Below, piece after piece: positions 14,588-58,570 of a stretch of DNA of 64,000 bases (position 1 is its first letter; every line of letters starts with the position of its first letter). The notes beneath the pieces are model-generated. The model was not told the DNA's origin and searched no databases. It saw only the letters and a list, made by a program, of their open reading frames with translations. Position numbers and translations under genes: made by a program. Source of the stretch: Elusimicrobia bacterium GWA2_56_46 (GTDB taxonomy: Bacteria > Elusimicrobiota > Elusimicrobia > Elusimicrobiales > UBA9959); contig MGTT01000028.1 of NCBI GenBank assembly GCA_001799575.1, forward strand, positions 79,274-143,273, written 5' to 3'.

Positions 14588-14591
14588 ATTG

Positions 14592-16670
14592 ATGCGAATC
14601 ACGAATCTCGTTGTAATGATTGTTGCCTTATGCGCCGCGGCGGCGCGGGCATACGACCTGCCTTCGTCCACCGGCACGCACAGGATAGTGTTCTCCTCGG
14701 ATCAGGGCGATTTCAACGAGAATACCCGCATCATAAATCTTCAGGGCAACGTGCAGCTGGACGAGCTGGGCCCGGACGAAAAGCTGGTGAAAACCATCAA
14801 GGCCAGACGCCTGACGGTAAAGTCCTCCAGCAATACGGTCTACGCCCCGGAGGATTTTGTGATGAACAACGCTTCCGGAACCGTCTATGGCAAAAGCGGG
14901 GTTTTCGACTACGCTTCCAATACCGGCTATATAAATTACGGCCGGTTCGCTTATCAGGATTTTTTCTTCTCCGGTAAAAAAGTGGAACTGGATCCGCAGC
15001 GCTATCTTTACAAAAAGGCCGAGATCACTTCCTGCGACGAGACGCCGCCGCATTTCAAGATAAAATCCTCCCGGATCTATCTCGCTCCCGGTAAATACTT
15101 CCTGGCTTACAATAACTTTTTTTACCTGGGCCGGCTGCCGATCTTCTATTTCCCGGTGCTGTACAAGCCGCTGATCGGGGGGACGCCGTTCGTGAGCAGT
15201 TTCTACCCCGGTTACGATGAGCGCAGCGGGTTCTACATCAAATCCAACTACGCCTACAGGTTCAATTCCAGCGTGAGGGGGAAACTGTACCTGGATTATT
15301 TCACCAAGCTGGGCTTCGGCACAGGCGGCGAGGTGGATTATAACAAACCGGAAAAGACCATCTCGAATCTTTCCGTCTACCGCATCCGCGAGGCTGACAC
15401 GAAGAAAGAACGCTGGGGGCTTAACGGCGGTTTCTGGCACAGGCTCAACCGGTTCAGCGAGAGCGATAACGCCGCCTATTACGCCCAGTCCGCCTACCGC
15501 CTGCTTTCGGATCCGGAATTCAACAACGATTATTTCAGAACCAACCCTTTTGCCATAAGCCCGGACAAGCAGGCCAGCCTGGCTTTTACCCGGGCCTCCA
15601 ACACCACGGTCACCAGGGTAAGCGCTTCCACCAAATACTACCGCGCCGGCGACCGTAACGGTTTTTACAAGGCCTATGAATCCGCTCCGCGGGTTGATTT
15701 TCAGAAAATGCCGTTCGCCATAGGCAAGCTCCCCGTCCTCCACTCTTTCAGCGGATTTTTTGAGAGCGCCAAGGAAGTCGGCCTGCCGTATTACCAGCGC
15801 AAAGGCGCCGGTACCTGGACTGTTTCCCGGACGGTGCCGCTGACGCGCGGCCTCACGCTGCTCCCTTCGGTATTCTACAATCAGTCGCTTTTCATCGCCA
15901 CCAGCGCCCAGACCACCAACCAGTGGATAGGGCGCTACGGCACAAACGTGAATATGCGCTACGAGCGTCTCCTGGGCTCGCTGGATCTGAGCTACGCCTA
16001 CCAGGCGCGCATGGTAGTGAACCGCTTAGGCCGGGACCGGCTCGCGGCGGACAAAGGCGAGGAAGTAAAGTCCCTGTTCTCCCAGCTTTTTATCGCACCC
16101 GCTTACAACACTTACTTTAAGGCGTTCACCACCTACGATCTTCGCGACGGAGTGGGGGGGAGCCTGTCAAAGCGCCTCGCGCCGGTGAACCTGGAGCTTT
16201 ACCACGCGCCCAGAAAAAATCTGAACGTCTATTTGCAGGACTCTTATAAATTCGGCCAGGGGAACGAGAGTCTGGTGACGCAGCTCTACTCGGGGGACGA
16301 AAAAAATTACTTCGGCCTGGGTTTGGCTAATTACAGCAGCGAGCCCAACACCTATGTCGTGAACCAGATGATGGGCTTCCGGATGCCGTGGGCGCCGTCC
16401 TGGCGGGCCGAAGGCGTGCTGCGCTACAAGATAGTCCGGTTCGCCGGCCCGGAAGACAGGGGTTTTGTTTTTTTTGAAAAGGGCCTGACGCTGCACAAGA
16501 ATTTCCACGATTTCCATACAAGCTGGTTTTTCAAGGTACGGAAGGACGTGAAAGAATTTTTCTTCCTGGTAAGTCTGAAAATGAACGACCGGGGCAAGCG
16601 CGACGCGTTTGAGGACGTCTCCAGGAATTACTGGCACCCCTGGCGCAAAGAGGGGGATTTAAGGGACTGA
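14592..16670 (+). CDS. lptD: LPS-assembly outer-membrane protein LptD-like (OstA N-terminal domain plus beta-barrel).
   Basis: There is a signal peptide and an OstA-like N-terminal region. The remainder is aromatic-rich, beta-strand-rich barrel sequence, and the length is 690 aa. Confidence 0.65.
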   Translation: MRITNLVVMIVALCAAAARAYDLPSSTGTHRIVFSSDQGDFNENTRIINLQGNVQLDELGPDEKLVKTIKARRLTVKSSSNTVYAPEDFVMNNASGTVYGKSGVFDYASNTGYINYGRFAYQDFFFSGKKVELDPQRYLYKKAEITSCDETPPHFKIKSSRIYLAPGKYFLAYNNFFYLGRLPIFYFPVLYKPLIGGTPFVSSFYPGYDERSGFYIKSNYAYRFNSSVRGKLYLDYFTKLGFGTGGEVDYNKPEKTISNLSVYRIREADTKKERWGLNGGFWHRLNRFSESDNAAYYAQSAYRLLSDPEFNNDYFRTNPFAISPDKQASLAFTRASNTTVTRVSASTKYYRAGDRNGFYKAYESAPRVDFQKMPFAIGKLPVLHSFSGFFESAKEVGLPYYQRKGAGTWTVSRTVPLTRGLTLLPSVFYNQSLFIATSAQTTNQWIGRYGTNVNMRYERLLGSLDLSYAYQARMVVNRLGRDRLAADKGEEVKSLFSQLFIAPAYNTYFKAFTTYDLRDGVGGSLSKRLAPVNLELYHAPRKNLNVYLQDSYKFGQGNESLVTQLYSGDEKNYFGLGLANYSSEPNTYVVNQMMGFRMPWAPSWRAEGVLRYKIVRFAGPEDRGFVFFEKGLTLHKNFHDFHTSWFFKVRKDVKEFFFLVSLKMNDRGKRDAFEDVSRNYWHPWRKEGDLRD

Positions 16671-27452: not shown

Positions 27453-27750
27453 TGTTTTCCTCAGGCAGGTCGGGGATAACGGGCAGGGCGCTTTTTTCCT
27501 CCAGCCTGTAATAACGCGTGGCGCCGACCTGGAGCTTGGGCGCGAAATATCCGACTTCCTTCAGTTTCTGGAACTCGGCCGTTCTGCTGATGCGCGGCTG
27601 TTGTATCCTGAAATTGCGCTGTACGCTTATACGGTCGGAAAAATGCCAGTAGGAGGAGACAAAGCCGGCTATCGCGCAGGTCACTATGGCTCCGCTCAGA
27701 AAATACTGCTCCCGGTCTTTTCGTATCCAGAACTTTCTGTTTAGGATCAT
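27442..27750 (-). CDS. Hypothetical small membrane protein (1 TM).
   Basis: The ORF is 102 aa. Its 3' end overlaps the next gene and its start abuts the valS stop. Confidence 0.45.
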   Translation of the reverse strand: MILNRKFWIRKDREQYFLSGAIVTCAIAGFVSSYWHFSDRISVQRNFRIQQPRISRTAEFQKLKEVGYFAPKLQVGATRYYRLEEKSALPVIPDLPEENNGN

Positions 27751-46599: not shown

Positions 46600-48096
46600 C
46601 TAAAATTTTCCGTTCACGATCTTTTTTCCGGAATCTATGAGCGCGTCCATCCTCGGCTTAGTGGCGGCCTCGGCGTAGATCCCGACCGTTTGTCCCGCGC
46701 CGGAGGGATGAAGGCCCAGCCAGCTGCCGTCTTTCATGATGAACTTGAAACCGTCCGTATGGTCTATTCTCCAGACCGAGGCGCCGGCCAGGGTCAGCGG
46801 AGGGCGGTGCGTCAGTTTCTCTATGACGGCGGCGAAGTTCACGCCTTCGTCCACCCTCAGTTCCATTCTGGTGTTCACGAAATCCCCGACTTTTTTATTG
46901 AGTTCCGCCAGCAGCTTTTTTATGGGTTTGCGTTCGTAGGCCGCCATTTCCGCCATAAGCAGGCAGGCCAGTATACCGTCCTGTTCCGGAGTGTGGCCCA
47001 GGATTGAAAGTCCGCCGGAGTCGTCTCCGCCGATCAGGTACTGGCCGGTGCGCAGCAGATTCCCGATGTGCCTGAAGCCGACCGGGGTTTCTCTTACCGC
47101 AAGACCGTAATGGCGGGCGATGGAATCCACGAAATGCGAGGTCATCAGCGACCGGGCCACCTTGCCTTTGAGGCCGCGGTTCTTTACCAGGTGTTCCAGC
47201 GCCAGGCCCAGCACCAGGTTGGGATGTATCCACGTCCCGTCGGAATCTATTACGCCGTAGCGGCCGGCGTCGCAATCGCAGGCCAGGCCCAGGTGAAGGC
47301 GGTTCCCGGTCACAGTTTCCCTCAGGACTCTGAGGTTTTCCGCGTCGGTATCGGGAGCCGCGCCGCCGAACAGCACATCCCGGTTTTCCCGCAGGGGGAT
47401 GACCCTGACGCCGAGCTTCTCAAGCGCCGGCCGCAGATAAGCGCGGGCGGCGCCATGACTGGAATCGGCCGCGACTTTAAGGCCGGCTTTTTTTATGGCT
47501 CCCGCGTCCAGCAGGGAGTAAAGCTGGTTGAGATAACTTTCGCGAAAATCCAGAATTTTTATGACTCCGGCGGAGAGAGCCTGGTCGAACGGAACGATCT
47601 TTTCGGCTTCGGCTATGGTGAGGCCTTGCGCGCGGGCATCAAGATCGTCCGCTATCTGCGGGAGGGCCGGCCCGCCCCAGTAGGGGATCCATTTGAAGCC
47701 GCTATAGTGGGCGGGGAAATGGCCCGCTGTCACCGTTACTCCGCCCGCCGCGAAAGTTTTCATGACCGTCCAGGCCACCGCGGGGGTCGGCGCGTCCGCG
47801 TTCGACAGCAGCACCGTCAGGCCTTCCGCGGCGAACGCTTCCGCGGTGTTTTTGGCGAATTCCTCTGAAAAGTAGCGCGTATCGTAGCCCACCGCCACGT
47901 GCTGGATCTTTGGGGCGGTTTTTCCGTTATTTTTCAAATGCAGGAGATATTCTTCGCTTTTATAGCCGTATTCCCGGTTTTCCTTTATGTGCTCGGCGGC
48001 GGCATGGGCGGCTCTGCGCAGATTGGTCACGTTAAAACCGTCGGCGATAACGGCCCTCCAGCCCGAGGCGCCGAATCTTATATTTGCGGTTGCCAT
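46600..48096 (-). CDS. Alpha-D-phosphohexomutase family protein (phosphoglucomutase / phosphomannomutase).
   Basis: It has the four-domain PGM/PMM architecture, the sugar-binding loop and a metal-binding DxDxDR-like motif (ACDCDAGR). Confidence 0.75.
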   Translation of the reverse strand: MATANIRFGASGWRAVIADGFNVTNLRRAAHAAAEHIKENREYGYKSEEYLLHLKNNGKTAPKIQHVAVGYDTRYFSEEFAKNTAEAFAAEGLTVLLSNADAPTPAVAWTVMKTFAAGGVTVTAGHFPAHYSGFKWIPYWGGPALPQIADDLDARAQGLTIAEAEKIVPFDQALSAGVIKILDFRESYLNQLYSLLDAGAIKKAGLKVAADSSHGAARAYLRPALEKLGVRVIPLRENRDVLFGGAAPDTDAENLRVLRETVTGNRLHLGLACDCDAGRYGVIDSDGTWIHPNLVLGLALEHLVKNRGLKGKVARSLMTSHFVDSIARHYGLAVRETPVGFRHIGNLLRTGQYLIGGDDSGGLSILGHTPEQDGILACLLMAEMAAYERKPIKKLLAELNKKVGDFVNTRMELRVDEGVNFAAVIEKLTHRPPLTLAGASVWRIDHTDGFKFIMKDGSWLGLHPSGAGQTVGIYAEAATKPRMDALIDSGKKIVNGKF

Positions 48097-48171
48097 AGAC
48101 TGAGAATATAGCAAAAAATCCGGAGTAAAGCAAAAAAACCACAGCGGGTATTTTGCTAGAATGTTCTACCA

Positions 48172-48600
48172 ATGAAAAGCATCTCCGCCAAATCCACGGT
48201 TTACCTTATAGACGGTTCCAATTTCTCCAGGAGTTTCTGGGATCGGAGGCAGGGGGAGAAGCCGGACGCGCTTGAGGCCGAGTTTCTCGACTGGCTGGAT
48301 GAGGTCTCCAGACTTGAACCCCTGAGCGCCTCGTGTTTCCGGGTCATCTTTGACGGCGGTTTCCGGCCCGTGCGGAGCCTGGCCAATCCGGCCATCAGCG
48401 TTCATTTCAGCGGGGACGAGCCGGCGGACGATTTTCTGCTGGAGCGGTCTTATTTCCTGGTCACCGAGGGCGCGCGGTGCGTAATCGTTTCGAATGACCG
48501 GGAGATAAGGGAAAAGGCCGCGGCCGAGAAAGTGAAGTCCATGCCCTGCGAAGTTTTCTACCGCCTCTGCGACGTGGAGCTGAAGAAAGGAAACAGGTAA
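48172..48600 (+). CDS. NYN-domain protein, YacP/Rae1-like predicted RNase.
   Basis: The motifs LIDGSNF and VIFDGG, plus acidic residues, match the YacP-like NYN fold. Confidence 0.6.
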   Translation: MKSISAKSTVYLIDGSNFSRSFWDRRQGEKPDALEAEFLDWLDEVSRLEPLSASCFRVIFDGGFRPVRSLANPAISVHFSGDEPADDFLLERSYFLVTEGARCVIVSNDREIREKAAAEKVKSMPCEVFYRLCDVELKKGNR

Positions 48601-48630
48601 GGCGTGCCTCAAAAGTTCACGTAATTTTTC

Positions 48631-48690
48631 TGTCATTCCTGCAATTTGTTGGCAGGAATCCAAACAACGTTTATGGGGATTGCTTTTGGA
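48631..48690. mobile_element. MITE-like element, copy 3 (divergent and partial).
   Basis: tgtcattcctgcaatttgttggcaggaatccaaacaacgtttatgggg shares the terminus and first hairpin with copies 1 and 2. Confidence 0.5.
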
Positions 48691-48795
48691 CGCCCTCAAA
48701 AGCCTAACTTTCCGCAGTAACTGACACAGGGAACACCGCTATGCGGCGTTCCCTGTGTGTGTCCTCAAATGGTCGGAACCTGTTGTTTTCTAATC

Positions 48796-49236
48796 TTACT
48801 TCCCGACTACACCACACAGTATTCTAACCAGGCCCTCAGCAGCTGTGTGCATACTCAGCGATGCGGGATCTCCGAGCTTGGGCAAAGCCATCATGGCCGT
48901 GCCGCCGAAGTCCCTGTCACCAGTACGACTGATCATTAATACCAAACCAGCCTCTTCCTTAATAGCGCTGAACCGGAAAGAGCGTATGACCCCGGTGCTG
49001 GCAACACTCTCAGTCAACACTCCTAGTTCCACTTCTGCCATGTTGGCGCCAAAACCTAAATACCCATTGCACGAATATTTTTCACTGGCTACGGCCTTAA
49101 CACCGACCACTGCGGGAACCGGGGTGACACCATCGGTTCCAGAAGAGCTATTAAGCTGTTCCACCACAGGCCCGGCATAAACTCCGCCAGAGAGCCCAAG
49201 CAACACTGTCGCCATCGCTATTATCTTTTTCATTTT
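48796..49236 (-). CDS. Hypothetical secreted protein, lying in a local low-GC patch.
   Basis: There is a signal peptide (MKKIIAMATVLLGLSGGVYA) and a strong RBS (GGAGGA). The local GC is about 50%, compared with ~62% for the window. Confidence 0.55.
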   Translation of the reverse strand, partial: KMKKIIAMATVLLGLSGGVYAGPVVEQLNSSSGTDGVTPVPAVVGVKAVASEKYSCNGYLGFGANMAEVELGVLTESVASTGVIRSFRFSAIKEEAGLVLMISRTGDRDFGGTAMMALPKLGDPASLSMHTAAEGLVRILCGVVGK

Positions 49237-49639
49237 ATTTTCTCCTCTAAGTTTAAGTTCCACATCTTGTTTTGATATCTGTCGCCCATAGTAAACCTTG
49301 TTGCGTTACTATAGTTTAGCCTGTAAAGAAGTTCCCACCAAGAGTCATAAGACCCAATCGTTTTTTTTTGACTAATTTCACCTGGGCCTTTCGGTCCGTA
49401 AAATATAGGTGCACAAACATGGTTGTCGGGTTAGTTGCCTCGTCACACCGGCGCAAGTCGTTCGGCATACCGGCGAAAGCCGCTATCCAGCATTAGGAAT
49501 ACCTGGATTCCGGCTTGCGCCGGAAAGACGACTTGGGCTTATGTGAGCTTTTGGGGATAACAGGTAAGGCAAAATCTCCTTGGCGGGAAAAATGCTAAAA
49601 TAAATCGTAGATTTTGTGCGCTAAATAGTGGGAAGAGAG

Positions 49640-49724
49640 CCCGGGTGCTGTAACTGGTAGCCAGAGCTGACTTAAAATCAGCTGGAGGTTTCCTCCGTGT
49701 GGGTTCGAGTCCCACCCCGGGCAT
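49640..49724 (+). tRNA. tRNA-Leu (anticodon UAA), type II with a long variable arm.
   Basis: Acceptor GCCCGGG/CCCGGGC, anticodon loop CTTAAAA, variable stem GGAGG/CCTCC, T-loop GTGGGTTCGAGTCCCAC. There is no encoded CCA. Confidence 0.85.
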
Positions 49725-49808
49725 TATAGGCGTTTTTTGAAAGGATATCAGCGAGAAATTTGAGGATTAAAGGGTCATAAAACTTGATCCGCAAAGAGGT
49801 GAAAAATT

Positions 49809-50435
49809 ATGGGTATAGTCCCCGAAGGCGTAAAACTTATCTGGATCGGAGCCGCGGCCGCCGTAGTGGGCGGCGTGGCGTCTTTCTGGCTGAAGTGGCT
49901 GGGCGTGCCGGTGCTGGCCCTGGGCGTTTTTTTCGCGGTGTTCTCGGCTTATTTTTTTCGCGACCCCGACAGGGACAAGATCTTCGCCCCGGGCGAGATC
50001 GTCTGCCCCGCCGACGGTAAAGTGCTGAGCGTGAGGACCGAGGACGATCCCAATGTCACCGTGGTGCGGATCTTCCTTTCCGTTTTCAACGTGCATCTCC
50101 AGCGGTCGCCGATGGAGGGAAAAGTTGAGAGCGTCACTTATACAAAGGGTAAATTCGCCATCGCTTACAAGCCGGAAGCTTCGGAAAACGAACGCAACCT
50201 TATAAAAATAACGGGCGCAAACGGGCGTTTCGCGCACGTCGAGCAGCTTACCGGCTCGATAGCCAGGCGCATAGTCGCTTATGTCAAGGCCGGAGAGGAA
50301 GTAAAGGCCGGGGCTAAAATAGGCATGATCTATTTCGGTTCCCAGGTGGCGGTGTATCTGCCCAAGGACGTCCGCGTCCTTGTGAAGCCCGGAGATAAAG
50401 TCCGCGGCGCTGAAACTATACTGGGACTTTGGTAG
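49809..50435 (+). CDS. psd: Phosphatidylserine decarboxylase (short, archaeal/bacterial Psd type).
   Basis: It has the FGSQV self-cleavage (GS) motif and N-terminal TM helices. Confidence 0.82.
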   Translation: MGIVPEGVKLIWIGAAAAVVGGVASFWLKWLGVPVLALGVFFAVFSAYFFRDPDRDKIFAPGEIVCPADGKVLSVRTEDDPNVTVVRIFLSVFNVHLQRSPMEGKVESVTYTKGKFAIAYKPEASENERNLIKITGANGRFAHVEQLTGSIARRIVAYVKAGEEVKAGAKIGMIYFGSQVAVYLPKDVRVLVKPGDKVRGAETILGLW

Positions 50436-50443
50436 GAGGCGAC

Positions 50444-51262
50444 ATGGAACAGAACGAGCGGCCGCGCGGCGGGATAGACATACAGAAGCTCAAGAAGACG
50501 GGGGCTGTGGTGCTCCCTTCTCTTTTCACTATCGCCAATATGGGTTTCGGTTTCTTTTCCATAATCTCGGCTTCCGAACGCAATTACGTTCTGGCGGCCT
50601 GGTTCGTCATCATGTCTTATGTGATGGATATGCTGGACGGCCGCATCGCCCGTCTGGTGCATGGGGAGAGTTCTTTCGGCGTGGAGATAGATTCGCTGTC
50701 CGACTGGATCTCGTTCGGCATAGCGCCCGCCTATCTGATGTACAATCTTGTGCTGAAAGACTACGGTTTCTGGGCCTATCCCGTGGCCTTTCTTTACGTT
50801 CTGTGCGGGGCGCTGCGCCTGGCGCGTTTCAACGTCAAGGCCCATTTAGGGGAGAGTTCAAAATCCTACTTCCAGGGTCTGCCTATTCCGGCGGCGGCCG
50901 GCATCCTCGTCTCTTTTGTCCTGGCGTACAGCCTGCTGGAGGCGGAGGGCAGCGTCAGGAACATAAAACTGATCATGAATCAGATGCCTTTTGTCTACGG
51001 TATCGCGCCGTTTATTATGATAGCGTTGTCCCTGCTGATGGTCTCCTCCGTACCCTACGCCGCTTTCAAACAGGGCGGCTTCTTCAAGCCCGCTTCCATA
51101 AAGGGCATGCTTCTGATCCTGAGCGTGATCTTTCTTATAGCGGCTTATCCGCAGGACGCGCTGTTCCTTTTCTTCTCGCTGTACGCTTTGTCGGGCCTGT
51201 TTATCGGTCTGTTCAAAGCCGCGTATTCCATAGGAAAGGCGAAAGCCGACAGTAAACCATAA
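50444..51262 (+). CDS. pssA: CDP-diacylglycerol--serine O-phosphatidyltransferase.
   Basis: It has the CDP-alcohol phosphatidyltransferase motif D(x)2DG(x)2AR...G(x)3D(x)3D. An AGGAGG RBS sits 5 nt upstream. Confidence 0.85.
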   Translation: MEQNERPRGGIDIQKLKKTGAVVLPSLFTIANMGFGFFSIISASERNYVLAAWFVIMSYVMDMLDGRIARLVHGESSFGVEIDSLSDWISFGIAPAYLMYNLVLKDYGFWAYPVAFLYVLCGALRLARFNVKAHLGESSKSYFQGLPIPAAAGILVSFVLAYSLLEAEGSVRNIKLIMNQMPFVYGIAPFIMIALSLLMVSSVPYAAFKQGGFFKPASIKGMLLILSVIFLIAAYPQDALFLFFSLYALSGLFIGLFKAAYSIGKAKADSKP

Positions 51263-51319
51263 ACGACGGGCAGCCCGCCAGTCAGCCTCTTCTTCCGTTC
51301 TCCCGGATCCGGGATCCTG

Positions 51320-52690
51320 TTATTTCTTTTTCGGGAACAGCGCCGCCGCCTTTTGCGTTTCAAAGCCGGCGGCGGAAGTCCTGGCTACCGCCAGGCCCAG
51401 CTGCATTCTGGTGGCGGTATCGGGCATGAAGGGGTAGATCCAGCCGGCGATGGCCCGCAGGGACCAGACAAGGTCGTATAGAAAAAGTTTAAGAGTTTCC
51501 GGTTCCGTATCGGCCAGTTTCCAGGGTTGTTTTTCTTCTATGGCCTTGTTGAGCAGCGCCACGGCCCGCCGGACATCGTCCAGCGCTTCCGAAAATCTAA
51601 GAGCGTCTATCTTCCTGTCCAGCTCCGGGCCGCCGGCCGAGATCTTTCCGAAGAGCTCCGCGTCGCCGGGACGGTCGGGCAGGCGGTCGGCCAGGTATTT
51701 CCGGACCATGCCCAGAACCCTGGAGAAAAGATTGCCCAGGCCGCCGGCCAGATCCGAGTTGTAGCGCCGCTTCAAAGTTTCAGGGGAAAAATTCCCATCG
51801 GCGGCGAAAGGGACTTCGCAGAACAGATAGTAACGGAGCGCGTCCGCCCCGTATTCCCGGATGATCTCTTCCGGCTCGATAAAGCCGCTTTCCGTTCCGG
51901 CCGCGCGGGCTGCGAACATCTTGCGCCCGTGGAGGTGGATCGTCTTTGGCGGTTCCAGGCCCAGCGCCAGAAGGAGGGCTGGCCAGAGAACCGCGTGAAA
52001 ATGGAGGGACTCTTTCCCCGTCACGTGCGCGTCCGCGGGCCATTTCATCTGGAAATTATCGGAGGGAGCGTCCGGATCATAGCCCGCCCCTGTGGCGTAA
52101 CCGAGCAGCGTGTCGAACCACGCTGAGATGGTGAGCCTCGGGTTTGCGGGTATTGTTATTCCCCAGCCGGTTTTGGCGCTGGAAACCGGGATATCTTTGA
52201 GACCCGATCCGACGAAGTTCGCCGCTTCCCGGGCAAAGCGGCCGGGCGTGAGGAACATCGGGTTGTCCGCGTAATGCGCGAGCAGCGCTTTCCCGTACCC
52301 GGAGAGCCGGAAGAAGCAGGCGTCCTTTCCGTAATAGATGTCCCCGGTCTTAACCAGTTTTTCAAAAGCCGCGCGCACCGCTTTTTCGTGCGCCCGGCCG
52401 CTGGTTCCGGTGAACAGGTCGCGGCTGATTCCCAGCGATTTCCAGAGCTTGTCTAATTTTCCGGAGACCGAGCCGCACCAGGCTTCCGCGGTCAGGCCTT
52501 TTTCCGCGGCCGCCCTTTCGACCCCGGCGCCGTGTTCCGCGGCCACGGTCTGAAAAAAAACGGGGATCTGGCGCGCGCGCTTGTGCCGGGCCAGGATATC
52601 GGCGGCCAGGGCGGAGTAAATGTGGCCGAGATCGGGAGCGCCGGTCACGGAACAGGGCGCGCTGGTGATATAAAAATAGATCTTCGGCAT
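51320..52690 (-). CDS. Methionyl-tRNA synthetase-like protein with degenerate catalytic motifs: HIGH reads DLGH and KMSKS reads KMFAA.
   Basis: It aligns to short-type MetRS along its whole length, including AAD..ARxKR, WFDxL, HxxGKD..FHAVxWP and the C-terminal anticodon-binding domain. The two class-I signature motifs are not conserved. It lies 1 nt after the holB stop. Confidence 0.7.
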   Translation of the reverse strand: MPKIYFYITSAPCSVTGAPDLGHIYSALAADILARHKRARQIPVFFQTVAAEHGAGVERAAAEKGLTAEAWCGSVSGKLDKLWKSLGISRDLFTGTSGRAHEKAVRAAFEKLVKTGDIYYGKDACFFRLSGYGKALLAHYADNPMFLTPGRFAREAANFVGSGLKDIPVSSAKTGWGITIPANPRLTISAWFDTLLGYATGAGYDPDAPSDNFQMKWPADAHVTGKESLHFHAVLWPALLLALGLEPPKTIHLHGRKMFAARAAGTESGFIEPEEIIREYGADALRYYLFCEVPFAADGNFSPETLKRRYNSDLAGGLGNLFSRVLGMVRKYLADRLPDRPGDAELFGKISAGGPELDRKIDALRFSEALDDVRRAVALLNKAIEEKQPWKLADTEPETLKLFLYDLVWSLRAIAGWIYPFMPDTATRMQLGLAVARTSAAGFETQKAAALFPKKK

Positions 52691-52691
52691 T

Positions 52692-53744
52692 TCAGCGGTT
52701 CCGGAGACCGTCCAGGGATACCGACAGTTTGTCGCTTTCAAGCAGCGCCGCTTCCAGCACCAGTCCGTGAGAAACGTTCTGGTTCAGGAACCGGCGGTAT
52801 TCCATAAGTTTACCGATCAGGGCCGCATAGGCGCGCGCGCTCCCGCCGGGGGGCTGCGCCAGCCAGCGTTTTCTGGCGGAAACCAGCAGCATCTCCAGCA
52901 TGAGCTTCGCTTCCTCGCGCGCCAGATAGGGTTCGCGGGGAAGGCTTGAGACCAGTTTGAAAATTTTGGCCGGGCCGGAAGCCGCGATGCCTGCAAGCCG
53001 GTCGCGGACCTTTTTGATATCGACGGCTTTTTTTACCGAGCCACCCGACAGTTCGCTCAGGACGGAAGCTTCGTCCAGCGTCATGCCGTCCCTTTCCAGA
53101 AGCTCTTCCACCGCCGCGGCGGAAAGCCGCGTGAATTCCACGGCGTAGCTCCGGGAGATGATGGTCGGAAGGAGCAGGTTTTTCTTGGCGGCGATAAGGA
53201 GGAAAACGGTGCCGGGGGGCGGTTCCTCAAGAACCTTTAACATCGCGTTCTGGGCGTTCGCGTTAAGCGTGTGGGCGTCGTTTATAATAAAGATCTTCCA
53301 CTCGGAGAGAATGGCTTTTTGGTAGACATGGCGCGTGAATTCCCTTACGGTGTCGATGCGCAGGGTCTTCTGTTTCCGGGCGTCCTCTTCAAGAAGGAGC
53401 CCCTGGAATTCGGAGTCTATGATCCTCACGTCGGGGTGCACACCTTTGTCGATCTGCGAGCAGGAAACGCACCGGCCGCAGGCGTCTTCAGAGGGATGAG
53501 GGATGAGGGATGAGGGATGAAGGGGGGAGCCGGAGGAGGGGGCGAAAAGGTCGTCTTCGGGTTTTGGTTCCTGCCGGGGGGTGTGGGTGCAGTTAAGAGC
53601 TTTGGCGAATTCTTTCGCCGCCAGGAATTTACCGGTCCCTTCGGGGCCTGAGAACAGAAGCGCGGGCGGTACGCGCCCGCCGGAGACGAGGGCCTTAAGT
53701 TTTTTTATCGCGCTTTCGTGGCCGAGGATGTTGTTGAAAGACAT
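52692..53744 (-). CDS. holB: DNA polymerase III delta-prime subunit.
   Basis: There is an AAA+ N-terminus (LLFSGPEGTGK) and a Zn module. A Pro/Ser-rich insertion is encoded by a heptamer repeat. Confidence 0.85.
   Translation of the reverse strand: MSFNNILGHESAIKKLKALVSGGRVPPALLFSGPEGTGKFLAAKEFAKALNCTHTPRQEPKPEDDLFAPSSGSPLHPSSLIPHPSEDACGRCVSCSQIDKGVHPDVRIIDSEFQGLLLEEDARKQKTLRIDTVREFTRHVYQKAILSEWKIFIINDAHTLNANAQNAMLKVLEEPPPGTVFLLIAAKKNLLLPTIISRSYAVEFTRLSAAAVEELLERDGMTLDEASVLSELSGGSVKKAVDIKKVRDRLAGIAASGPAKIFKLVSSLPREPYLAREEAKLMLEMLLVSARKRWLAQPPGGSARAYAALIGKLMEYRRFLNQNVSHGLVLEAALLESDKLSVSLDGLRNR
53493..53520. repeat. Heptamer tandem repeat (GGGATGA)x4 inside the holB coding sequence.
   Basis: gggatgagggatgagggatgagggatga. 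On the coding (minus) strand it encodes ...HPSSLIPHPS... Confidence 0.8.
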
Positions 53745-53808
53745 GGTTGTTTGAAAGAGACAGGGACGTAAAGTAATTCAGTTCGCAGACTTTACGTCCT
53801 TGTCCAGA

Positions 53809-54432
53809 TCACTTTGCAGCTATCCCAAACCTTGCCGCCAGCCTGGCGGTTATGGCCGCGTGTATTTTCTCCACGGATCCGGCGGCGTCGATCCTGAAAG
53901 AGCCTGGACGCGCGGCCAGAGCCGAGTAGGCCTTGTTGACCCTGAGCCTGAAAGCGGTGTCCTGGCGTTCCATCCTGTCCGATCCAAGGTTCCTGCCGCG
54001 CTTGAAAAACTCGCTGTCAGGCATGGTGAAAACGATGGTCAGATCCGGCTTGAGGCCGGCGGTGGCTATGCGGTTCAGTGTCGCGACCATTTTGAGATCC
54101 AGTTTTCTGCCGTAGCCCTGGTAGGCCGTGGTGGCCATGGTGAAGCGGTCGGAGATGATTATTCTCCCGGCTTTCAGGGCGGGCCTGATTATGTCGGCGG
54201 TATGCTGCGCCCTGGCGGCCTCGTAAAGCAGGAGTTCGGTCAGGGGGCTGATCTTGTTTTCAGGGTCGAGGAGAATCTCGCGGATGGCCTCGGAAATGCG
54301 CGCCCCTCCGGGTTCGCGGGTTAAAACCGTTTTGAGGCCTTTTTTCTTCAGCCAGGCGGCCAGAAGTCCGGCCTGGGTGGATTTGCCGGAGCGATCCGGT
54401 CCCTCGAAGACTATAAAGAGGCCTCTTTTCAT
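53809..54432 (-). CDS. tmk: Thymidylate kinase.
   Basis: The P-loop FIVFEGPDRSGKST, the DRF motif and the position upstream of holB fit Tmk. Confidence 0.9.
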   Translation of the reverse strand: MKRGLFIVFEGPDRSGKSTQAGLLAAWLKKKGLKTVLTREPGGARISEAIREILLDPENKISPLTELLLYEAARAQHTADIIRPALKAGRIIISDRFTMATTAYQGYGRKLDLKMVATLNRIATAGLKPDLTIVFTMPDSEFFKRGRNLGSDRMERQDTAFRLRVNKAYSALAARPGSFRIDAAGSVEKIHAAITARLAARFGIAAK

Positions 54433-54527
54433 ACCTATATGATAGCAACAGAAAGCTAAAGAAAGCAACGGAACGCCAATCGAAGTAATGTAACGCCGAG
54501 CCAGTGGATTTTGGGTGAAGCTCCGCA

Positions 54528-54610
54528 GGATAGTAAAGCGGGGGCCTGCCGGGGTGAGGCCTTTTCGCGTTCCGTCGGCGGCCTGCCGGGTCGAAAAGGC
54601 CTCACCCCGG
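54528..54610. repeat. Palindromic hairpin element of the same family as 3590-3680.
   Basis: ggggtgaggccttttcgcgttccgtcggcggcctgccgggtcgaaaaggcctcacccc is a perfect 17 bp stem. It is preceded by a gatagtaaagcgggggcctgccgggg leader similar to the one at 3590. Confidence 0.75.
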
Positions 54611-54804
54611 CACCCCGCATAAGGCTTACGCGCTTGATGGTCGCTCGACTAAATTTCCCGGCGCTCGCCTCAACCCCAAGCCACTTATAAAACAAAGCCG
54701 CCGGTTTCCCGGCAATGGTGGTAAATGCACTGTATCTTAAAAAGGGCGGGATAATGATGTTGTGTTTTAGGTCGTAACGTGAGGAACTACAATACGCGTA
54801 AGTT

Positions 54805-55005
54805 TTAGGGAGGGGCGGCGCCGGGTTTTCTGTGCGCTCCATTCGGAGGGTTTTAAGACCGGGGTCTGGAGCGTATCCCTCCGGGACGGCGGTGAATGTT
54901 TGAGGCAAAAAACTTTGCTTTTTTGCCGAGTTCGCACGCCGACGGAAGACCCCGGTCTTCTTCTCCATAAAACCCGAACCCGGAGCGCGCGGGAAACCCG
55001 GCGCC
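54805..55005. ncRNA. Structured RNA, copy 2. It is paralogous to 3889-4085, and its helices are maintained by compensatory substitutions.
   Basis: The closing helix pairs ccgggttttctgtgcgctcc with ggagcgcgcgggaaacccgg. The inner helix pairs ccggggtc with gaccccgg, compared with ccggagtc/gactccgg in copy 1. The central hairpin is ggcaaaaaac...ttttttgcc. Confidence 0.55.
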
Positions 55006-55417
55006 GCCCCGACTCCGCTATCCTGCGGTTCGTAACTCAAAGTCAATCAGCCATGCGCAAGTTTACGAACATCCGGAGCGGCCGCAGTCGTGGCAGGTGG
55101 GGCCGGAACAGCCGGGATTCATAACTTGCATGGGAGGACTCCCAGGCGATGCCGACGCTGGCCGGTGATACGTGATGTTTTGCCGAGCCGCGAAATTAAA
55201 CTATAATCTGGAGATGTCAATGAGGACAGGTGTGGCGATGATTTTAACCGCTAATATACCTTTAGGCAATATTTATGCAACACGGAAATACTAAAGTCAG
55301 TCTGGAGGCGCGGCAATCTGGAAGCGGGGCAATTTATAGCCTTACATCCCGAACCTGAACCGCTTTACGCCTTTGCCTCTAAGCGGTTTTGCATCTATAT
55401 AACGGAGCGAATAAAAT

Positions 55418-57844
55418 ATGCCCGATCAATTCGACGAGTCCTCGCTTAACGAGGAAGCCATAACCGACGTGGAAACGGCCAGGCTGGCTTTACGCTGGGC
55501 ACTGGACAAGATCCGCGCTTTGCAGGAAGAGGCCATGCGTTCCAGGCAGAATCTGCAGGAGAAGTCTTCCCAGGCGGCGTTCATTGAGAACCAGCTGAAA
55601 GGGAAGAACTCGGAGATCGAAAGGATCCTGCGCACCCACGAAGAGGAGCTGAAGTCCACCCAGAATTCGCTGGAGTACCAGTTCCGCTCAAAACTGGAGC
55701 GGCTCGCCGAAAGAGAAAAGGAACTGGAAGACAAGTCCTCCAGGCAGGAGGAGATCCTTAAGCAGAAAGAGACCAGACTGCTTGACGATTATCAGAAAAA
55801 ATCTGACGAGCTGCGCGCCCGCTGGGCCCAGGTGGAAGCCGAGCTCTGGCGGCTGCGCCAGGAACATATGCTCAAGCAGCAGGAATTCGAGAAGCTTTAT
55901 GCCGCCAGGCTTGAGGACGAGCGCGCCAAGGCCGCCGCTGAAATGGAGAACGTCCGCGCCGGGTTCGAGAAGACTTACGCCGACAGGATCGCGGATCTGG
56001 AAAAAAGGGAACGCGCCGCCGCCGACGAACTGAAAAAGCAGGAAGCCATGCTCAAGTGGTCCAAAGACAGCTTCCAGGCCGAGGCGGCGGAGCGCGAAAA
56101 AGCTTTAAAGCAGAAAGACCTGGATATCGAAAAAAAATTGATGGAGAAAAACCAGGAGATAGAGGATTACAGGGTAAAAGAGGGCCTGCTTCAGAAGCAG
56201 TTGTCTGATCTGCCCGAGGCTGTCCGCAAGCGCGATGAAGATCTGAACAGGTACAAGCAGGCCATGGAGAGCCTCGAAAGCGTCATCCGCACCCTCGAAA
56301 ACGAGAAAAAAAACCTGCGGGCCGAGCTGGAACAGAAGGTGTCGCGCCTGAACGAGGCCCTGGAGGCGGAGAAGAAAAAGTACGGAGAAATGGAGGCTGA
56401 GATCCCCAAGCGGCTCAAGATCGCCGTAGAGCACGAGCGCGGCCGGCTGACCGAACGGCTTGCCGGCGTGGAGGCCGGTTACAAGGAGGATCTGCGCCGC
56501 CGCCAGGAAGAGGCGGCGTATCTTGAAAGAACCCTTAAGACCCTGGAGGAGAACAACAAGACCCTGCAGGCGGAGCGGGACTCTTTTTCGTACAAGATAG
56601 AGCAGTTACAGACCCAGTACGGCATAAAACAGGAGGAATTTTCTTTCAGGGAAAAGCAGCTTCAGTCCGAATATGACGTCAGGCTCAAGGTGGAACTGGA
56701 AAAACAGTCGGAGGCCATGAGGAACGAGCTTGAGTCGGCCCGGCGTATTTACGAGGACAATCTGCGCCTGAAAATAGAGGAGATAGCGCACCTGCGCCGG
56801 GAACTGGAGGGGGCCGTAAACGACAGGATGTCTTTCCAGACCCAGGCCGCCGAATTACGCCGCGCCGTGGACGCCGTCAAGGCCAAAGGCGAGAACGAAC
56901 TGTCCGCCCTCCGGGCGCAGCTTAAAGGCGCGTATGAACGGCAGCTTTCCGCGGAGCTTGCGGAAGCCGGGGATCGCCAGGCCGCGGAAAAGCAGAAGCT
57001 CGCCGCGGCTTTCGACGCGCGGCTCAAAGAAGAGGGGCTTGAAGTTTCCAGAAAAGAGGAGGAACTTCAGCGCCTCAGGAACGACATGAACAGGCTGGAA
57101 GCGGCCGGCAGGGAGGCCCTGGCCGCGGAGCGCCAGCGCGGGAAGACTGAGCTCCAGGTCCAGGCGGCGTCGTTCGCCGATACGGTGAAGATCTACGAGG
57201 ACAAGGTGAGCAACCTTAACAAGGCGATGGAGTCGCTGAAAGTGGAAAGAGAGGAGATGATCCTCCTGGAACGGGAGCGGCTTGAGAGGTTATATTCCGA
57301 AAAAGAGAAAGATTTCGACGAAAGGCTTTACCGGAAAGATCAGGAAGCGGTGCGTCTGCGGGAAGAGGCCTCCGGCCTGCGCAACGAGCGCGCCAATCTC
57401 GCCGCCGAACTGGCCAGGGAAAAAGAGCTGGGGAATGGGCGGATCCGCGTTCTCAACGAGAAACTGACGGGCAAGGAAGCGGAATTCCAGGGCCGCCTGG
57501 ACGAAGCCCTCGGGAAAGAGATGCGGCGGGCGGGGGAAACGCTTGACAAAAAGAATCAGGAACTGGACGCTCTGCTTCAGGCGAAAGAGACCCAGGAAAA
57601 TATGTACCGTAAGTCGCTGGAGGAGTTCCGGGCCAGGCTTTCCGAGGCCGTGACCAGGCTTGAGACGCTTAAAAAACTGGCTGATGAACGGGGCGCGCGC
57701 GTGGACGCCCTGGAGCGGGAACTGGATCAGATCCGGAAGTTCTCTTCCGAAGAGAACTCCTCCCTCGCCGCCAGGCTGGCCGCAAAGGAAAAGGACTGGC
57801 GCGAGCTGAGGGCCGAGTATGAGAAGCTGAAGAATGGGGGATGA
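55418..57844 (+). CDS. 808-aa protein that is coiled-coil for nearly its whole length (cytoskeletal or scaffold-like, with no recognisable enzymatic domain).
   Basis: It is extremely rich in E, K, R, L and A, with heptad-like periodicity throughout. There is no TM helix or signal peptide, and the ORF is long and uninterrupted. Confidence 0.7.
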   Translation: MPDQFDESSLNEEAITDVETARLALRWALDKIRALQEEAMRSRQNLQEKSSQAAFIENQLKGKNSEIERILRTHEEELKSTQNSLEYQFRSKLERLAEREKELEDKSSRQEEILKQKETRLLDDYQKKSDELRARWAQVEAELWRLRQEHMLKQQEFEKLYAARLEDERAKAAAEMENVRAGFEKTYADRIADLEKRERAAADELKKQEAMLKWSKDSFQAEAAEREKALKQKDLDIEKKLMEKNQEIEDYRVKEGLLQKQLSDLPEAVRKRDEDLNRYKQAMESLESVIRTLENEKKNLRAELEQKVSRLNEALEAEKKKYGEMEAEIPKRLKIAVEHERGRLTERLAGVEAGYKEDLRRRQEEAAYLERTLKTLEENNKTLQAERDSFSYKIEQLQTQYGIKQEEFSFREKQLQSEYDVRLKVELEKQSEAMRNELESARRIYEDNLRLKIEEIAHLRRELEGAVNDRMSFQTQAAELRRAVDAVKAKGENELSALRAQLKGAYERQLSAELAEAGDRQAAEKQKLAAAFDARLKEEGLEVSRKEEELQRLRNDMNRLEAAGREALAAERQRGKTELQVQAASFADTVKIYEDKVSNLNKAMESLKVEREEMILLERERLERLYSEKEKDFDERLYRKDQEAVRLREEASGLRNERANLAAELAREKELGNGRIRVLNEKLTGKEAEFQGRLDEALGKEMRRAGETLDKKNQELDALLQAKETQENMYRKSLEEFRARLSEAVTRLETLKKLADERGARVDALERELDQIRKFSSEENSSLAARLAAKEKDWRELRAEYEKLKNGG

Positions 57845-58396: not shown

Positions 58397-58423
58397 AGTC
58401 CCCCTGCCGAGAGAATTTTGTTT

Positions 58424-58495
58424 TGCGCCCGGCGCGATTCGAACGCGCGGCCACTCGCTTAAAAGGCGAATGCTCTACCCCTGAGCTACGGGCGC
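58424..58495 (-). tRNA. tRNA-Lys (anticodon UUU).
   Basis: The reverse complement is GCGCCCGTAGCTCAGGGGTAGAGCATTCGCCTTTTAAGCGAGTGGCCGCGCGTTCGAATCGCGCCGGGCGCA, with anticodon loop CTTTTAA. Confidence 0.85.
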
Positions 58496-58570
58496 AAAGT
58501 GCTACGGATTGATTATACCAAAATACGGCCGCCTTGCAAATTTTGCGATCTTTTGAAATTACACGGGGTA

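What the first reader, a model, noticed from the sequence alone, without database searches (positions are those of the whole stretch)
51320..52690. MetRS-like gene in the canonical tmk-holB-metG position with both class-I catalytic motifs degenerate
The protein aligns along its full length with short-type methionyl-tRNA synthetases. Conserved elements include AADxxARxKR, WFDTL, HVTGKESLHFHAVLWP and the C-terminal anticodon-binding helices. However, the HIGH motif reads PDLGH in place of PHLGH, the YVN residues are SVT, and TGTDEHG is TVAAEHG. The KMSKS loop is replaced by KMFAARAAGTES, so the second lysine is absent and 5 residues are inserted. Re-reading the other two frames of the DNA does not rescue KMSKS, so this is not a simple frameshift. 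Two readings are possible. It may be a catalytically impaired MetRS paralog retained as a tRNA-binding protein, with the real metG elsewhere. Alternatively it may be a highly unusual functional MetRS.
Basis: partly seen in the sequence, partly recalled or inferred. Interest (0 to 1): 0.7.

Follow-up and report, generated by a model that had tools for sequence, protein, structure and literature searches.

The report
Dead ancestral MetRS kept beside replacement
This gene is the bacterium's original methionyl-tRNA synthetase, which has lost every part needed for catalysis after a second, horizontally acquired synthetase took over, yet it is still conserved by selection, so it probably now has a non-enzymatic role.

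Summary
Window 51320-52690 (-) encodes a 456-aa type-1 MetRS homologue in the tmk-holB-metG position. HIGH reads DLGH, the Met-binding Tyr and Asp are gone (SVT, TVAAEHG), and the KMSKS loop reads RAAGT. The claimed 5-residue insertion is wrong.

The DNA is identical in independent assemblies of Elusimicrobia bacterium GWA2_56_46, so this is not a sequencing error. Synteny shows it is the vertically inherited MetRS1 orthologue, not a paralogue.

The real MetRS is P0180, a canonical type-2 enzyme (HFGH, QFSKS, two knuckles). It passes the NCBIfam cut-offs and occurs in the same four assemblies. In related genomes both genes lie on one contig.

MetRS1 has decayed in at least three separate clades of this order. 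Every tested genome with a degenerate copy also carries MetRS2.

The relic is not a free-running pseudogene:
- Its ORF is intact in about 10 species.
- dN/dS is about 0.25, against 0.08-0.14 for canonical copies.
- The AlphaFold model is confident (pLDDT 89).

Its present role is not established. tRNA binding is plausible in this genome but is not conserved in all lineages. This is a pseudo-synthetase, a new variant of a known kind, and of moderate interest.

The parts
51320..52690 (-). CDS of the catalytically dead type-1 MetRS relic (456 aa). It equals NCBI OGR41055.1, locus tag A2X28_06935, annotated 'hypothetical protein'.
   Evidence: ORF. Pfam PF09334 at E=2.4e-58, but below both NCBIfam metG cut-offs: 360<598 and 278<336. 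Exact match to P0121. AF2 model pLDDT 89; Foldseek TM 0.85-0.90 to MetRS1 structures.
52643..52651 (-). S14-V15-T16 in place of Y-V-N. The Tyr is the methionine-pocket lid, equivalent to E. coli Y15.
   Evidence: Y is at least 95% conserved in 88 canonical clade members and kept in 9% of degenerate ones.
52622..52633 (-). HIGH remnant D20-L-G-H23, with the first His replaced by Asp.
52529..52549 (-). TVAAEHG in place of TGTDEHG. The Asp that binds the methionine amino group (E. coli D52 equivalent) is Ala51.
52322..52330 (-). G121-K-D123, the junction left by deletion of the 36-residue zinc knuckle of the CP domain.
   Evidence: Alignment gap against P0003 and others. Two-segment HMMER alignment to 2csx, skipping chain residues 124-157.
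51893..51907 (-). R262-A-A-G-T266, the positions equivalent to KMSKS. They lie inside a loop (residues 259-269) predicted to be disordered.
   Evidence: K265 is conserved 100% in canonical copies, 9% in degenerate ones. (pLDDT <50 for residues 259-269).
51323..51742 (-). Anticodon-binding helical domain. The recognition residues N320, R324 (GLGNLFSR) and W390 (QPW) are still present, as is the clade-specific WIYPFMPD...LFPKKK tail.
   Evidence: This is the domain with the lowest dN/dS (0.18-0.20).
52692..53744 (-). holB (DNA polymerase III delta'). Its stop lies one base before the relic's ATG.
   Evidence: Pfam PF13177 at 6.8e-44. Junction sequence.
53809..54432 (-). tmk (thymidylate kinase), first gene of the tmk-holB-MetRS1 unit.
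   Evidence: Pfam PF02223 at 5.7e-44. ATG start.
51264..51280 (-). Terminator-like hairpin followed by a T-rich tail, just after the relic's stop. Weak evidence: a consensus scan only.

Best explanation
The gene is the vertically inherited type-1 methionyl-tRNA synthetase of an Elusimicrobiales bacterium (MAG GWA2_56_46).

An ancestor of this group acquired a type-2 MetRS, probably by horizontal transfer. In this organism that enzyme is P0180 (OGR43157.1), which sits on another contig and charges tRNA-Met.

The old enzyme was then free of its essential job and lost everything needed to make methionyl-adenylate:
- the first His of HIGH;
- the Asp and Tyr that hold methionine;
- the whole KMSKS loop;
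- the zinc knuckle.

It is therefore a pseudo-synthetase and cannot aminoacylate tRNA.

It was not discarded. It remains an intact ORF, translationally coupled to holB and predicted to fold well, and it is still under purifying selection. It most likely serves a non-catalytic role. In this genome the most plausible mechanism is binding of tRNA-Met, or another RNA, through the still intact anticodon-binding domain, as a binder, adaptor or buffer.

Shown: homology, motif loss, orthology, presence of the second MetRS, and selection.
Inferred: loss of activity and transfer of the essential function.
Speculative (about 0.3): the tRNA-binding role.
For: 1. Motif loss and knuckle deletion. The protein differs at 43 of 144 positions that are at least 95% invariant in 88 canonical clade members. 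It keeps none of 8 conserved positions in the KMSKS loop.
2. It fails the NCBIfam metG cut-offs (360<598, 278<336). Its canonical sister P0003 passes (642>598).
3. Orthology is shown by synteny: tmk-holB-X-pssA-psd in L001, L004, L091 and about 60 GTDB loci, with one copy per genome.
4. A second MetRS exists in the same organism. P0180 is named 'methionine--tRNA ligase [Elusimicrobia bacterium GWA2_56_46]'. Its accessions HBB68164, HBW21829, OGR43157 and OGR55370 pair with HBB66847, HBW23393, OGR41055 and OGR54815 for the relic.
   - It passes NF001100 (629>587) and TIGR00398 (565>336).
   - It has HFGH, GTDEHG, 8 knuckle Cys and QFSKS.
   - Its contig has GC 0.57 and a tetranucleotide correlation of 0.97 with the window.
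   - Both genes appear in run SRR6482411.
5. In relatives the two genes are physically linked as RNR-MetRS2-tmk-holB-MetRS1 (L019, L038, L098-L100).
6. Other degenerate lineages also carry MetRS2: HNW43083 with HNW43741, and two JAVVFK01 contigs.
7. Purifying selection persists. NG86 dN/dS is 0.16-0.28 for degenerate-versus-degenerate pairs, all p<=1e-5 against neutrality. Canonical pairs give 0.08-0.14. Simulated neutral drift at 0.1 or more substitutions per site leaves the ORF open in under 1% of runs.
8. The lineage evolves about 7 times faster than its canonical sister, with 107 versus 15 unique changes (p=8e-17).
9. The AF2 model has pLDDT 89 and pTM 0.90. Only the ex-KMSKS loop and part of the tail are disordered. 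Foldseek gives TM 0.85-0.90 to MetRS1 structures.
10. N320, R324 and W390 are retained, and the anticodon domain has the lowest dN/dS.
Against: - No biochemical data exist. Loss of activity is inferred from motifs alone.
- The proposed tRNA-binding role is weak. The closest orthologue, L006/P0006, has D and K at the N320 and R324 positions. Across 22 degenerate sequences N320 is kept in 27% and W390 in 45%. Anticodon recognition is therefore not what is generally conserved.
- dN/dS is 2-3 times higher than in canonical copies, so much of the protein is relaxed.
- NG86 at dS near 1 is approximate.
- Co-occurrence in GWA2_56_46 rests on MAG binning, although four assemblies and contigs of about 250 kb agree.
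- I could not scan the whole genome for further MetRS genes, or for loss of this gene in sister lineages.
Confidence: 0.75

Rival explanations
1. The gene is a functionless relic. After MetRS2 took over it is simply decaying slowly. The apparent constraint reflects selection against misfolded or toxic products, or too little time for deletion.
For: - Evolution is about 7 times faster than in the canonical sister.
- dN/dS is 2-3 times that of canonical copies.
- Decay is progressive and differs by lineage. It reaches the anticodon-recognition residues in many lineages.
- No partner or new conserved motif was found.
Against: - dN/dS of about 0.25 is far below 1, even for pairs whose whole divergence lies inside the degenerate state. 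Examples are L058/L061 (p=1e-5) and L064/L075 (0.155).
- The ORF is intact, with no frameshift or stop, in about 10 GTDB species from at least 3 clades and in further metagenomic sequences. Neutral simulation predicts stops quickly.
- The gene is last in its operon, so no polarity argument explains keeping the ORF open.
- Bacterial genomes usually delete useless genes (established knowledge).
Confidence: 0.2
2. The protein is a repurposed ligand-binding or regulatory protein that does not act through tRNA. One possibility is a methionine- or analogue-sensing subunit, in the way HisZ uses a dead HisRS fold. Another is an enzyme with different chemistry in the remodelled pocket.
For: - The side-chain pocket residues W191, Y198, H232 and W236 (E. 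coli W253, Y260, H301, W305 equivalents) are kept, while the ATP-site residues are lost.
- Four pocket-lining positions (Y14, Y189, V190, I228) are replaced in at least 91% of degenerate sequences from independent clades. This holds even in mildly degenerate proteins that keep HIGH. The pattern looks directional rather than random.
- Precedent: HisZ and YadB (PMC7373986).
Against: - The replacing residues at those positions are heterogeneous (S, A, D, T, G, R, H...), as expected for loss of constraint rather than a new shared specificity.
- D51 and Y14, needed to hold an amino acid, are gone.
- No conserved partner gene lies next to it apart from the ancestral tmk and holB.
Confidence: 0.12
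3. The protein is a highly divergent but still active MetRS.
For: - Some class I synthetases tolerate variant signature motifs. Examples are ArgRS enzymes lacking the canonical KMSKS lysine (own knowledge) and QFSKS in the MetRS2 clade here.
- The fold and the anticodon domain are intact.
Against: - All five catalytic elements are lost at once.
- The lost sites vary freely among orthologues (RAAGT, KMPGS, KISGT, ETAGQ...) instead of converging on an alternative solution.
- A canonical MetRS2 is present in the same genome.
- The protein scores below both curated metG cut-offs.
Confidence: 0.02
4. The degenerate motifs are a sequencing, assembly or frameshift artefact.
For: The source is a metagenome-assembled genome.
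Against: - The DNA is identical in independent assemblies from different runs.
- There are four NCBI accessions and 16 contigs.
- Alternative frames do not restore the motifs.
- Orthologues at 61-66% identity in other species share the knuckle deletion and KMSKS loss.
- ValRS in the same window has intact HMGH and KMSKS.
Confidence: 0.01

Closest known systems
Type-1 (single-knuckle) bacterial MetRS, e.g. Aquifex aeolicus (PDB 2CSX/2CT8), Staphylococcus aureus (7WPx) and Brucella (4DLP)
   Same: It has the same Rossmann catalytic fold, stem-contact fold and helical anticodon-binding domain. HMMER gives E=5e-81 to 2csx, and Foldseek gives TM 0.85-0.90. It occupies the same tmk-holB-metG genomic position as its canonical orthologues.
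   Different: It lacks the first His of HIGH, the Met-binding Tyr and Asp, KMSKS and the knuckle itself. It scores below the curated family cut-offs. It is not the organism's MetRS.
Coexisting MetRS1 and MetRS2 in Gram-positive bacteria (MetRS2 makes cells insensitive to MetRS1 inhibitors; PMC8165550; S. pneumoniae and B. anthracis examples from my own knowledge)
   Same: A native type-1 enzyme coexists with an acquired type-2 enzyme in one genome. Some relatives here (L007, L019, L038) also keep both copies canonical.
   Different: In the known cases both enzymes are active. Here the native type-1 copy has lost catalysis but is retained, and this has happened in at least three clades.
NmLeuRS2 of Natrialba magadii and other dysfunctional duplicate synthetases (ScGlyRS2, SLIMP) discussed in PMC4005665
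   Same: One of two same-specificity synthetase genes carries a broken KMSKS (Lys to Ser) and has very low activity. It keeps tRNA affinity and is proposed to have another, tRNA-dependent role.
   Different: Those proteins are paralogues with milder lesions, and their activity was measured. Here the decayed copy is the ancestral orthologue, its lesions cover every catalytic element plus a domain deletion, and no biochemistry exists.
HisZ (HisRS-like regulatory subunit of ATP-phosphoribosyltransferase) and YadB/GluQRS (PMC7373986)
   Same: A full synthetase catalytic-domain fold is reused without canonical tRNA aminoacylation.
   Different: HisZ and YadB have defined partners or substrates and form old, separate families. 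No partner or substrate is known here, and the anticodon domain is retained.
DALRD3, an ArgRS-anticodon-domain protein that targets tRNA-Arg to METTL2 (PMC7237682)
   Same: It offers a possible working analogy: a non-catalytic synthetase-derived anticodon-binding module acting as a tRNA-specificity adaptor.
   Different: It is eukaryotic and consists of the anticodon domain only. No modifying enzyme is associated with the relic here. This is an analogy only, and it was not tested.

Membership tests
Methionyl-tRNA synthetase (EC 6.1.1.10), type 1 | Sequence and fold homology to the MetRS catalytic and anticodon-binding domains | tested here: met
   PF09334 at E=2.4e-58. PDB MetRS hits down to 5e-81. 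Foldseek TM 0.85-0.90.
Methionyl-tRNA synthetase (EC 6.1.1.10), type 1 | Score above the curated equivalog cut-offs (NF008900, TIGR00398) | tested here: not met
   359.9 against 598, and 278 against 336.35. The canonical sister P0003 scores 642 and 504.
Methionyl-tRNA synthetase (EC 6.1.1.10), type 1 | HIGH signature (H-[ILVM]-G-H) for ATP binding | tested here: not met
   The motif reads D20-L-G-H23.
Methionyl-tRNA synthetase (EC 6.1.1.10), type 1 | KMSKS loop with the catalytic second lysine | tested here: not met
   The equivalent positions read R-A-A-G-T. None of 8 conserved loop positions is kept.
Methionyl-tRNA synthetase (EC 6.1.1.10), type 1 | Methionine-binding Tyr (E. coli Y15) and Asp (E. 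coli D52) | tested here: not met
   S14 and A51 occupy these positions. The residue equivalences to E. coli come from established MetRS literature (own knowledge).
Methionyl-tRNA synthetase (EC 6.1.1.10), type 1 | [quoted passage not shown] | tested here: not met
   A 36-residue deletion removes the knuckle.
Methionyl-tRNA synthetase (EC 6.1.1.10), type 1 | Anticodon CAU recognition residues (E. coli N391, R395, W461 equivalents) | tested here: met
   N320, R324 and W390 are present. Binding itself was not tested.
Methionyl-tRNA synthetase (EC 6.1.1.10), type 1 | Met-AMP formation and tRNA-Met aminoacylation | not testable with these tools
   This needs ATP-PPi exchange and aminoacylation assays, or complementation.
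Methionyl-tRNA synthetase (EC 6.1.1.10), type 1 | It is the genome's provider of Met-tRNA (sole or essential metG) | tested here: not met
   A canonical MetRS2, P0180, is present in the same four assemblies.
Pseudo-synthetases / aaRS-like non-catalytic proteins (HisZ, SLIMP, NmLeuRS2-like) | Synthetase fold with the catalytic signature residues lost | tested here: met
Pseudo-synthetases / aaRS-like non-catalytic proteins (HisZ, SLIMP, NmLeuRS2-like) | Maintained by purifying selection rather than being a pseudogene | tested here: met
   dN/dS is 0.16-0.28, p<=1e-5. ORFs are intact in at least 3 clades. This is a pairwise NG86 estimate only; no branch model was run.
Pseudo-synthetases / aaRS-like non-catalytic proteins (HisZ, SLIMP, NmLeuRS2-like) | A defined non-catalytic function or partner | not testable with these tools
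   No partner gene is apparent in the neighbourhoods. Binding experiments are needed.

The most novel reading that the evidence does not exclude
In this order of Elusimicrobia, type-1 MetRS has a second function that does not depend on catalysis and predates the arrival of MetRS2. One possibility is an RNA- or tRNA-binding or regulatory role tied to the tmk-holB replication operon. Once MetRS2 supplies Met-tRNA, selection keeps only that second function. The same enzyme has therefore been stripped to a pseudo-synthetase repeatedly, in at least three clades. This would define a new family of bacterial pseudo-synthetases and offer a natural dissection of a synthetase's moonlighting role.
Probability: 0.4. 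Interest if true: 0.65.

Novelty: new variant of a known kind. Interest (0 to 1): 0.5.

Why it matters
1. It is a clean natural example of what happens to an essential synthetase after a xenologue displaces it. The gene is not lost. It is repeatedly reduced to a conserved non-catalytic protein, which points to an unrecognised second role for bacterial MetRS1 and gives a direct way to find that role.

2. It is an annotation hazard.
   - JGI and Prokka-style pipelines call these proteins methionyl-tRNA synthetase.
   - Degenerate copies such as P0006 (339.6) and P0037 (370) still pass the TIGR00398 cut-off of 336.35.
   - Genomes in this clade can therefore score two metG markers. One is dead and the other was probably horizontally acquired.
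   - TIGR00398 is, to my knowledge, one of the single-copy markers used for genome-quality estimates and phylogenomics. That point is unverified here. If correct, both contamination estimates and marker trees can be misled.

3. It shows that synteny (tmk-holB-metG) is not a safe proxy for function.

Tried and rejected
- A second metG inside the window: none found. The only other class I hit is ValRS at 27747-30464, which has intact motifs.
- A within-clade paralogue (duplication): rejected. All 80 GTDB loci come from different genomes, with one MetRS1 each, and all are syntenic.
- The window's own genome is not in the genome-contig collection. I therefore could not scan it directly. The second MetRS was found indirectly: a tblastn of the flanks of relatives turned up MetRS2 next to MetRS1 in L019 and L038, and a homologue search then found it in this organism.
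- The metagenome-contig scan with a holB alignment was meant to find lineages that had deleted the relic. It was a dead end. The patterns were too generic and only three relevant short contigs were returned.
- P0002 versus P0122 as a close pair for dN/dS: their CDS are identical, so the pair is uninformative.
- Population variation within the window's species: all assemblies are identical at the DNA level, so no polymorphism test was possible.
- Literature searches for a described MetRS pseudo-enzyme, or for Elusimicrobia synthetase oddities, found nothing specific.
- Rfam on 48000-56000 found only tRNA-Leu and one sub-threshold chance hit.
- Promoter and terminator scans give only weak consensus matches.
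Full report
**Observation**

Window 51320-52690 (-) is an intact ORF of 456 codons. It extends to a TTG at 52741, but the ATG at 52690 lies one base after the holB stop and matches the NCBI gene model.

It matches Pfam tRNA-synt_1g at E=2.4e-58. Its closest solved relatives are type-1 MetRS structures (2csx, 4.9e-81).

- HIGH is D20-L-G-H23.
- Y-V-N is S14-V-T16.
- TGTDEHG is T-V-A-A51-E-H-G.
- The region that should read HGWWTxNGEKMSKSRGNxI reads HGRKMFAARAAGTESGFI.

In alignment this loop is one residue shorter than normal, not five longer. The KMSKS-equivalent residues are R262-A-A-G-T266.

It removes the single zinc knuckle of the connective-peptide domain, the feature that defines MetRS1 (PMC8165550).

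The other reading frames restore nothing. ValRS in the same window (27747-30464) has normal HMGH and KMSKS.

The protein scores 360 and 278 bits against NCBIfam metG models whose cut-offs are 598 and 336.

**Source and sequence accuracy**

The exact protein is P0121, 'hypothetical protein A2X28_06935 [Elusimicrobia bacterium GWA2_56_46]'. It has four NCBI accessions (OGR41055, OGR54815, HBB66847, HBW23393) and occurs on 16 contigs. Independent ENA and Logan assemblies are identical at the DNA level. Sequencing error is excluded.

**Orthology**

The closest relatives are all Elusimicrobia MetRS. P0006 (61% identity), P0002 (66%) and P0005 (59%) lie in the same tmk-holB-X-(orf)-pssA-psd context.

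A scan of GTDB species genomes returned 80 loci from 80 genomes. Each has one copy, and 61 carry all four neighbour genes. The gene is therefore the vertically inherited MetRS1 orthologue, not a paralogue.

**Degeneration is recurrent**

Motif tables for about 140 clade members show a sharp split.

- About 110 sequences have essentially invariant PLYYVN, PHIGH, TGTDEHG, the knuckle and KMSKS.
- 22 non-redundant sequences are degenerate to varying degrees.

The degenerate sequences fall into four groups.

| Group | Members | State |
|---|---|---|
| A | window, P0002, P0006 | Knuckle deleted; KMSKS reads RAAGT, KMPGS or KISGT. P0005 is an intermediate (PNIGH, TGTEEHG, KISKS). |
| B | six GTDB species | Knuckle kept; KMSKS replaced by ETAGQ, GTAGP, GMSGT and others. 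|
| C | P0008, P0009 | KMSNS, KMSGA. |
| D | P0029, P0036, L043, L045 and others | KMSTL, KISRT and TGTGEHG. |

A tree built from the four neighbour genes places the degenerate genomes in at least three separate clades.

- Clade X contains the window, L006, L004 and L009, with canonical L007 nested inside (92% support).
- Clade B has 100% support.
- L043 and L045 are sister to canonical L024 (100% support).

**The real MetRS**

A tblastn of the flanks of the 80 loci found a second MetRS gene 2.4 kb upstream of MetRS1 in L019 and L038. The arrangement is RNR-MetRS2-tmk-holB-MetRS1, and it is repeated in L098-L100. This second gene is a 560-aa type-2 enzyme.

Searching with it returned a tight elusimicrobial clade (P0157-P0192, at least 74% identity). 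Identity then drops to 54-56% for enzymes from other phyla, which carry an extra C-terminal PF01588 domain. This pattern suggests a horizontal acquisition.

One member, P0180, is 'methionine--tRNA ligase [Elusimicrobia bacterium GWA2_56_46]'. Several lines place it in the window's organism:

- Its accessions come from the same four series as the window protein.
- It passes NF001100 (629>587) and TIGR00398 (565>336).
- It has HFGH, GTDEHG, eight knuckle cysteines and QFSKS. QFSKS is also the motif of the outgroup enzymes.
- It lies on a contig of about 200-250 kb with GC 0.57 and a tetranucleotide correlation of 0.97 to the window.
- It is found in the same run, SRR6482411, as the relic.

Other pairings were found:

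- Group D: HNW43083 with HNW43741.
- Group B: L059 with P0184, both on JAVVFK01 contigs.
- The canonical L007 genome with P0277.

All three degenerate groups I could test carry MetRS2. Some genomes keep both enzymes canonical.

**Selection**

| Comparison | NG86 dN/dS |
|---|---|
| Degenerate versus degenerate pairs (e.g. L058/L061: 0.25, p=1e-5 against neutrality) | 0.16-0.28 |
| Window versus L006 or L091 (p about 1e-18 to 1e-20) | 0.26-0.28 |
| Canonical pairs | 0.08-0.14 |

Within the window protein the anticodon domain is the most constrained (0.18-0.20). The N-terminal Rossmann half is among the least constrained (0.31-0.41; the 216-330 block reaches 0.44 in one of the two comparisons).

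Tajima tests give 107 unique changes in the window lineage against 15 in the canonical sister P0003 (p=8e-17).

Neutral simulation at 0.1 or more substitutions per site leaves the ORF open in under 1% of runs. Constraint is therefore relaxed but clearly persists.

**Structure**

AlphaFold2 with the clade alignment gives pLDDT 89 and pTM 0.90. Only residues 259-269 (the former KMSKS loop) and 436-445 fall below 50. Foldseek matches MetRS1 structures at TM 0.85-0.90.

**What is kept and what is lost**

Of 144 positions that are at least 95% invariant in canonical copies, the window protein differs at 43.

Losses across the degenerate set concentrate on these positions:

- Y14, N16 and D51.
- Y189, V190 and N197.
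- I228 and F231.
- K262 to K265.
- N316, N320 and W390.

Y14, Y189, V190 and I228 are replaced in at least 91% of degenerate sequences, even the mild ones. The methionine pocket therefore seems to go first.

The window protein keeps the anticodon residues N320, R324 and W390. Its orthologue L006 has D and K at the first two positions, and groups B and D mostly lack the Trp.

**Mechanism**

The best-supported account is displacement. A type-2 MetRS entered an ancestor of this clade. The two enzymes coexisted. In several lineages the ancestral type-1 enzyme lost catalysis. In GWA2_56_46 it is catalytically dead and P0180 is the working MetRS.

Retention under selection implies a remaining non-catalytic role. 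In this genome an RNA- or tRNA-binding role is plausible but unproven, and it is not generalisable across lineages.

The rivals are:

- a functionless relic in slow decay (about 0.2);
- a ligand-binding or regulatory protein like HisZ (about 0.12);
- a divergent but active MetRS (about 0.02);
- an artefact (about 0.01).

**Comparison with known systems**

- The protein is homologous to MetRS1 but fails six of the defining features tested.
- Coexisting MetRS1 and MetRS2 are known in Gram-positive bacteria, but there both are active (PMC8165550).
- Weak or dysfunctional duplicate synthetases, some retaining tRNA affinity (NmLeuRS2, ScGlyRS2, SLIMP), and repurposed paralogues (HisZ, YadB) are known (PMC4005665, PMC7373986).
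- I found no description of a MetRS1-derived pseudo-synthetase, or of recurrent decay of the ancestral copy.

I therefore rate it a new variant of a known kind, with moderate interest (0.5).

**Dead ends**

- The window's genome is absent from the genome collection.
- The metagenome scan with holB was uninformative.
- No close pair or polymorphism exists for the window's own lineage.
- No Rfam element lies in the locus.

Noticed in passing
window 55066-55125 (-), within the roughly 950-bp gap between tmk (ends 54432) and the gene starting at 55418: A short remnant encodes ..NPGCSGPTCHDCGRSGCS* followed by a stop. It matches the last 19 residues of the ribonucleotide reductase that sits directly upstream of tmk (L004) or of MetRS2-tmk (L019) in relatives. 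The tblastn match is 74% identical at E=7e-4, and the DNA aligns to the 3' end of the L004 RNR gene. The RNR gene seems to have been cut away here by a rearrangement. About 30 bases just upstream of the tmk ATG are also conserved with L004.
   Followed up: partly
L019:6119-7801 (+), L038, L098-L100; P0157-P0192: All elusimicrobial type-2 MetRS are 554-570 aa and lack the C-terminal PF01588 tRNA-binding and dimerisation domain. Their nearest non-elusimicrobial relatives (54-56% identity, about 686 aa) carry it. Between the same genome pairs MetRS2 is 76-85% identical, while canonical MetRS1 is only 65%.
   Followed up: partly
alignment positions equivalent to window residues 14, 189, 190 and 228 (nt 52649-52651, 52121-52126, 52007-52009): Four methionine-pocket positions are replaced in 91-100% of 22 degenerate MetRS1 sequences from independent clades. 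This includes proteins that still have HIGH and a near-normal KMSKS. The replacing residues are heterogeneous. It is unexplained whether this is the first step of decay or selection against methionine activation.
   Followed up: partly
L004:9502-10122 (+), L091:1555-2271 (+), L092:1546-2262 (+): In the P0005 and P0002 genomes an extra ORF of 206-238 aa with no Pfam hit lies between the degenerate MetRS1 and pssA. It is absent from the window, where the gap is 57 bp, and from L001.
   Followed up: no
window 55418-57844 (+) and 14589-16670 (+): There are two large ORFs with no Pfam match at E<=1e-5. One is 808 aa and very rich in E, K, R, L and A, so it looks like a coiled coil. The other is 693 aa.
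   Followed up: no
window 27747-30464 (-): This is a canonical ValRS (905 aa) with intact HMGH and KMSKS. I used it as an internal control showing that class I motifs are not generally degraded in this genome.
   Followed up: yes
window 49639-49723 (+) and 58423-58496 (-): tRNA-Leu(UAA) and tRNA-Lys(UUU) genes. There is no tRNA-Met gene in the window.
   Followed up: no
P0006, P0037; names: Degenerate copies still exceed the TIGR00398 cut-off (339.6 and 370 against 336.35), and some pipelines label them methionyl-tRNA synthetase. PGAP labels others 'class I tRNA ligase family protein' or 'hypothetical protein'. Genomes of this clade can therefore appear to hold two metG marker genes.
   Followed up: partly
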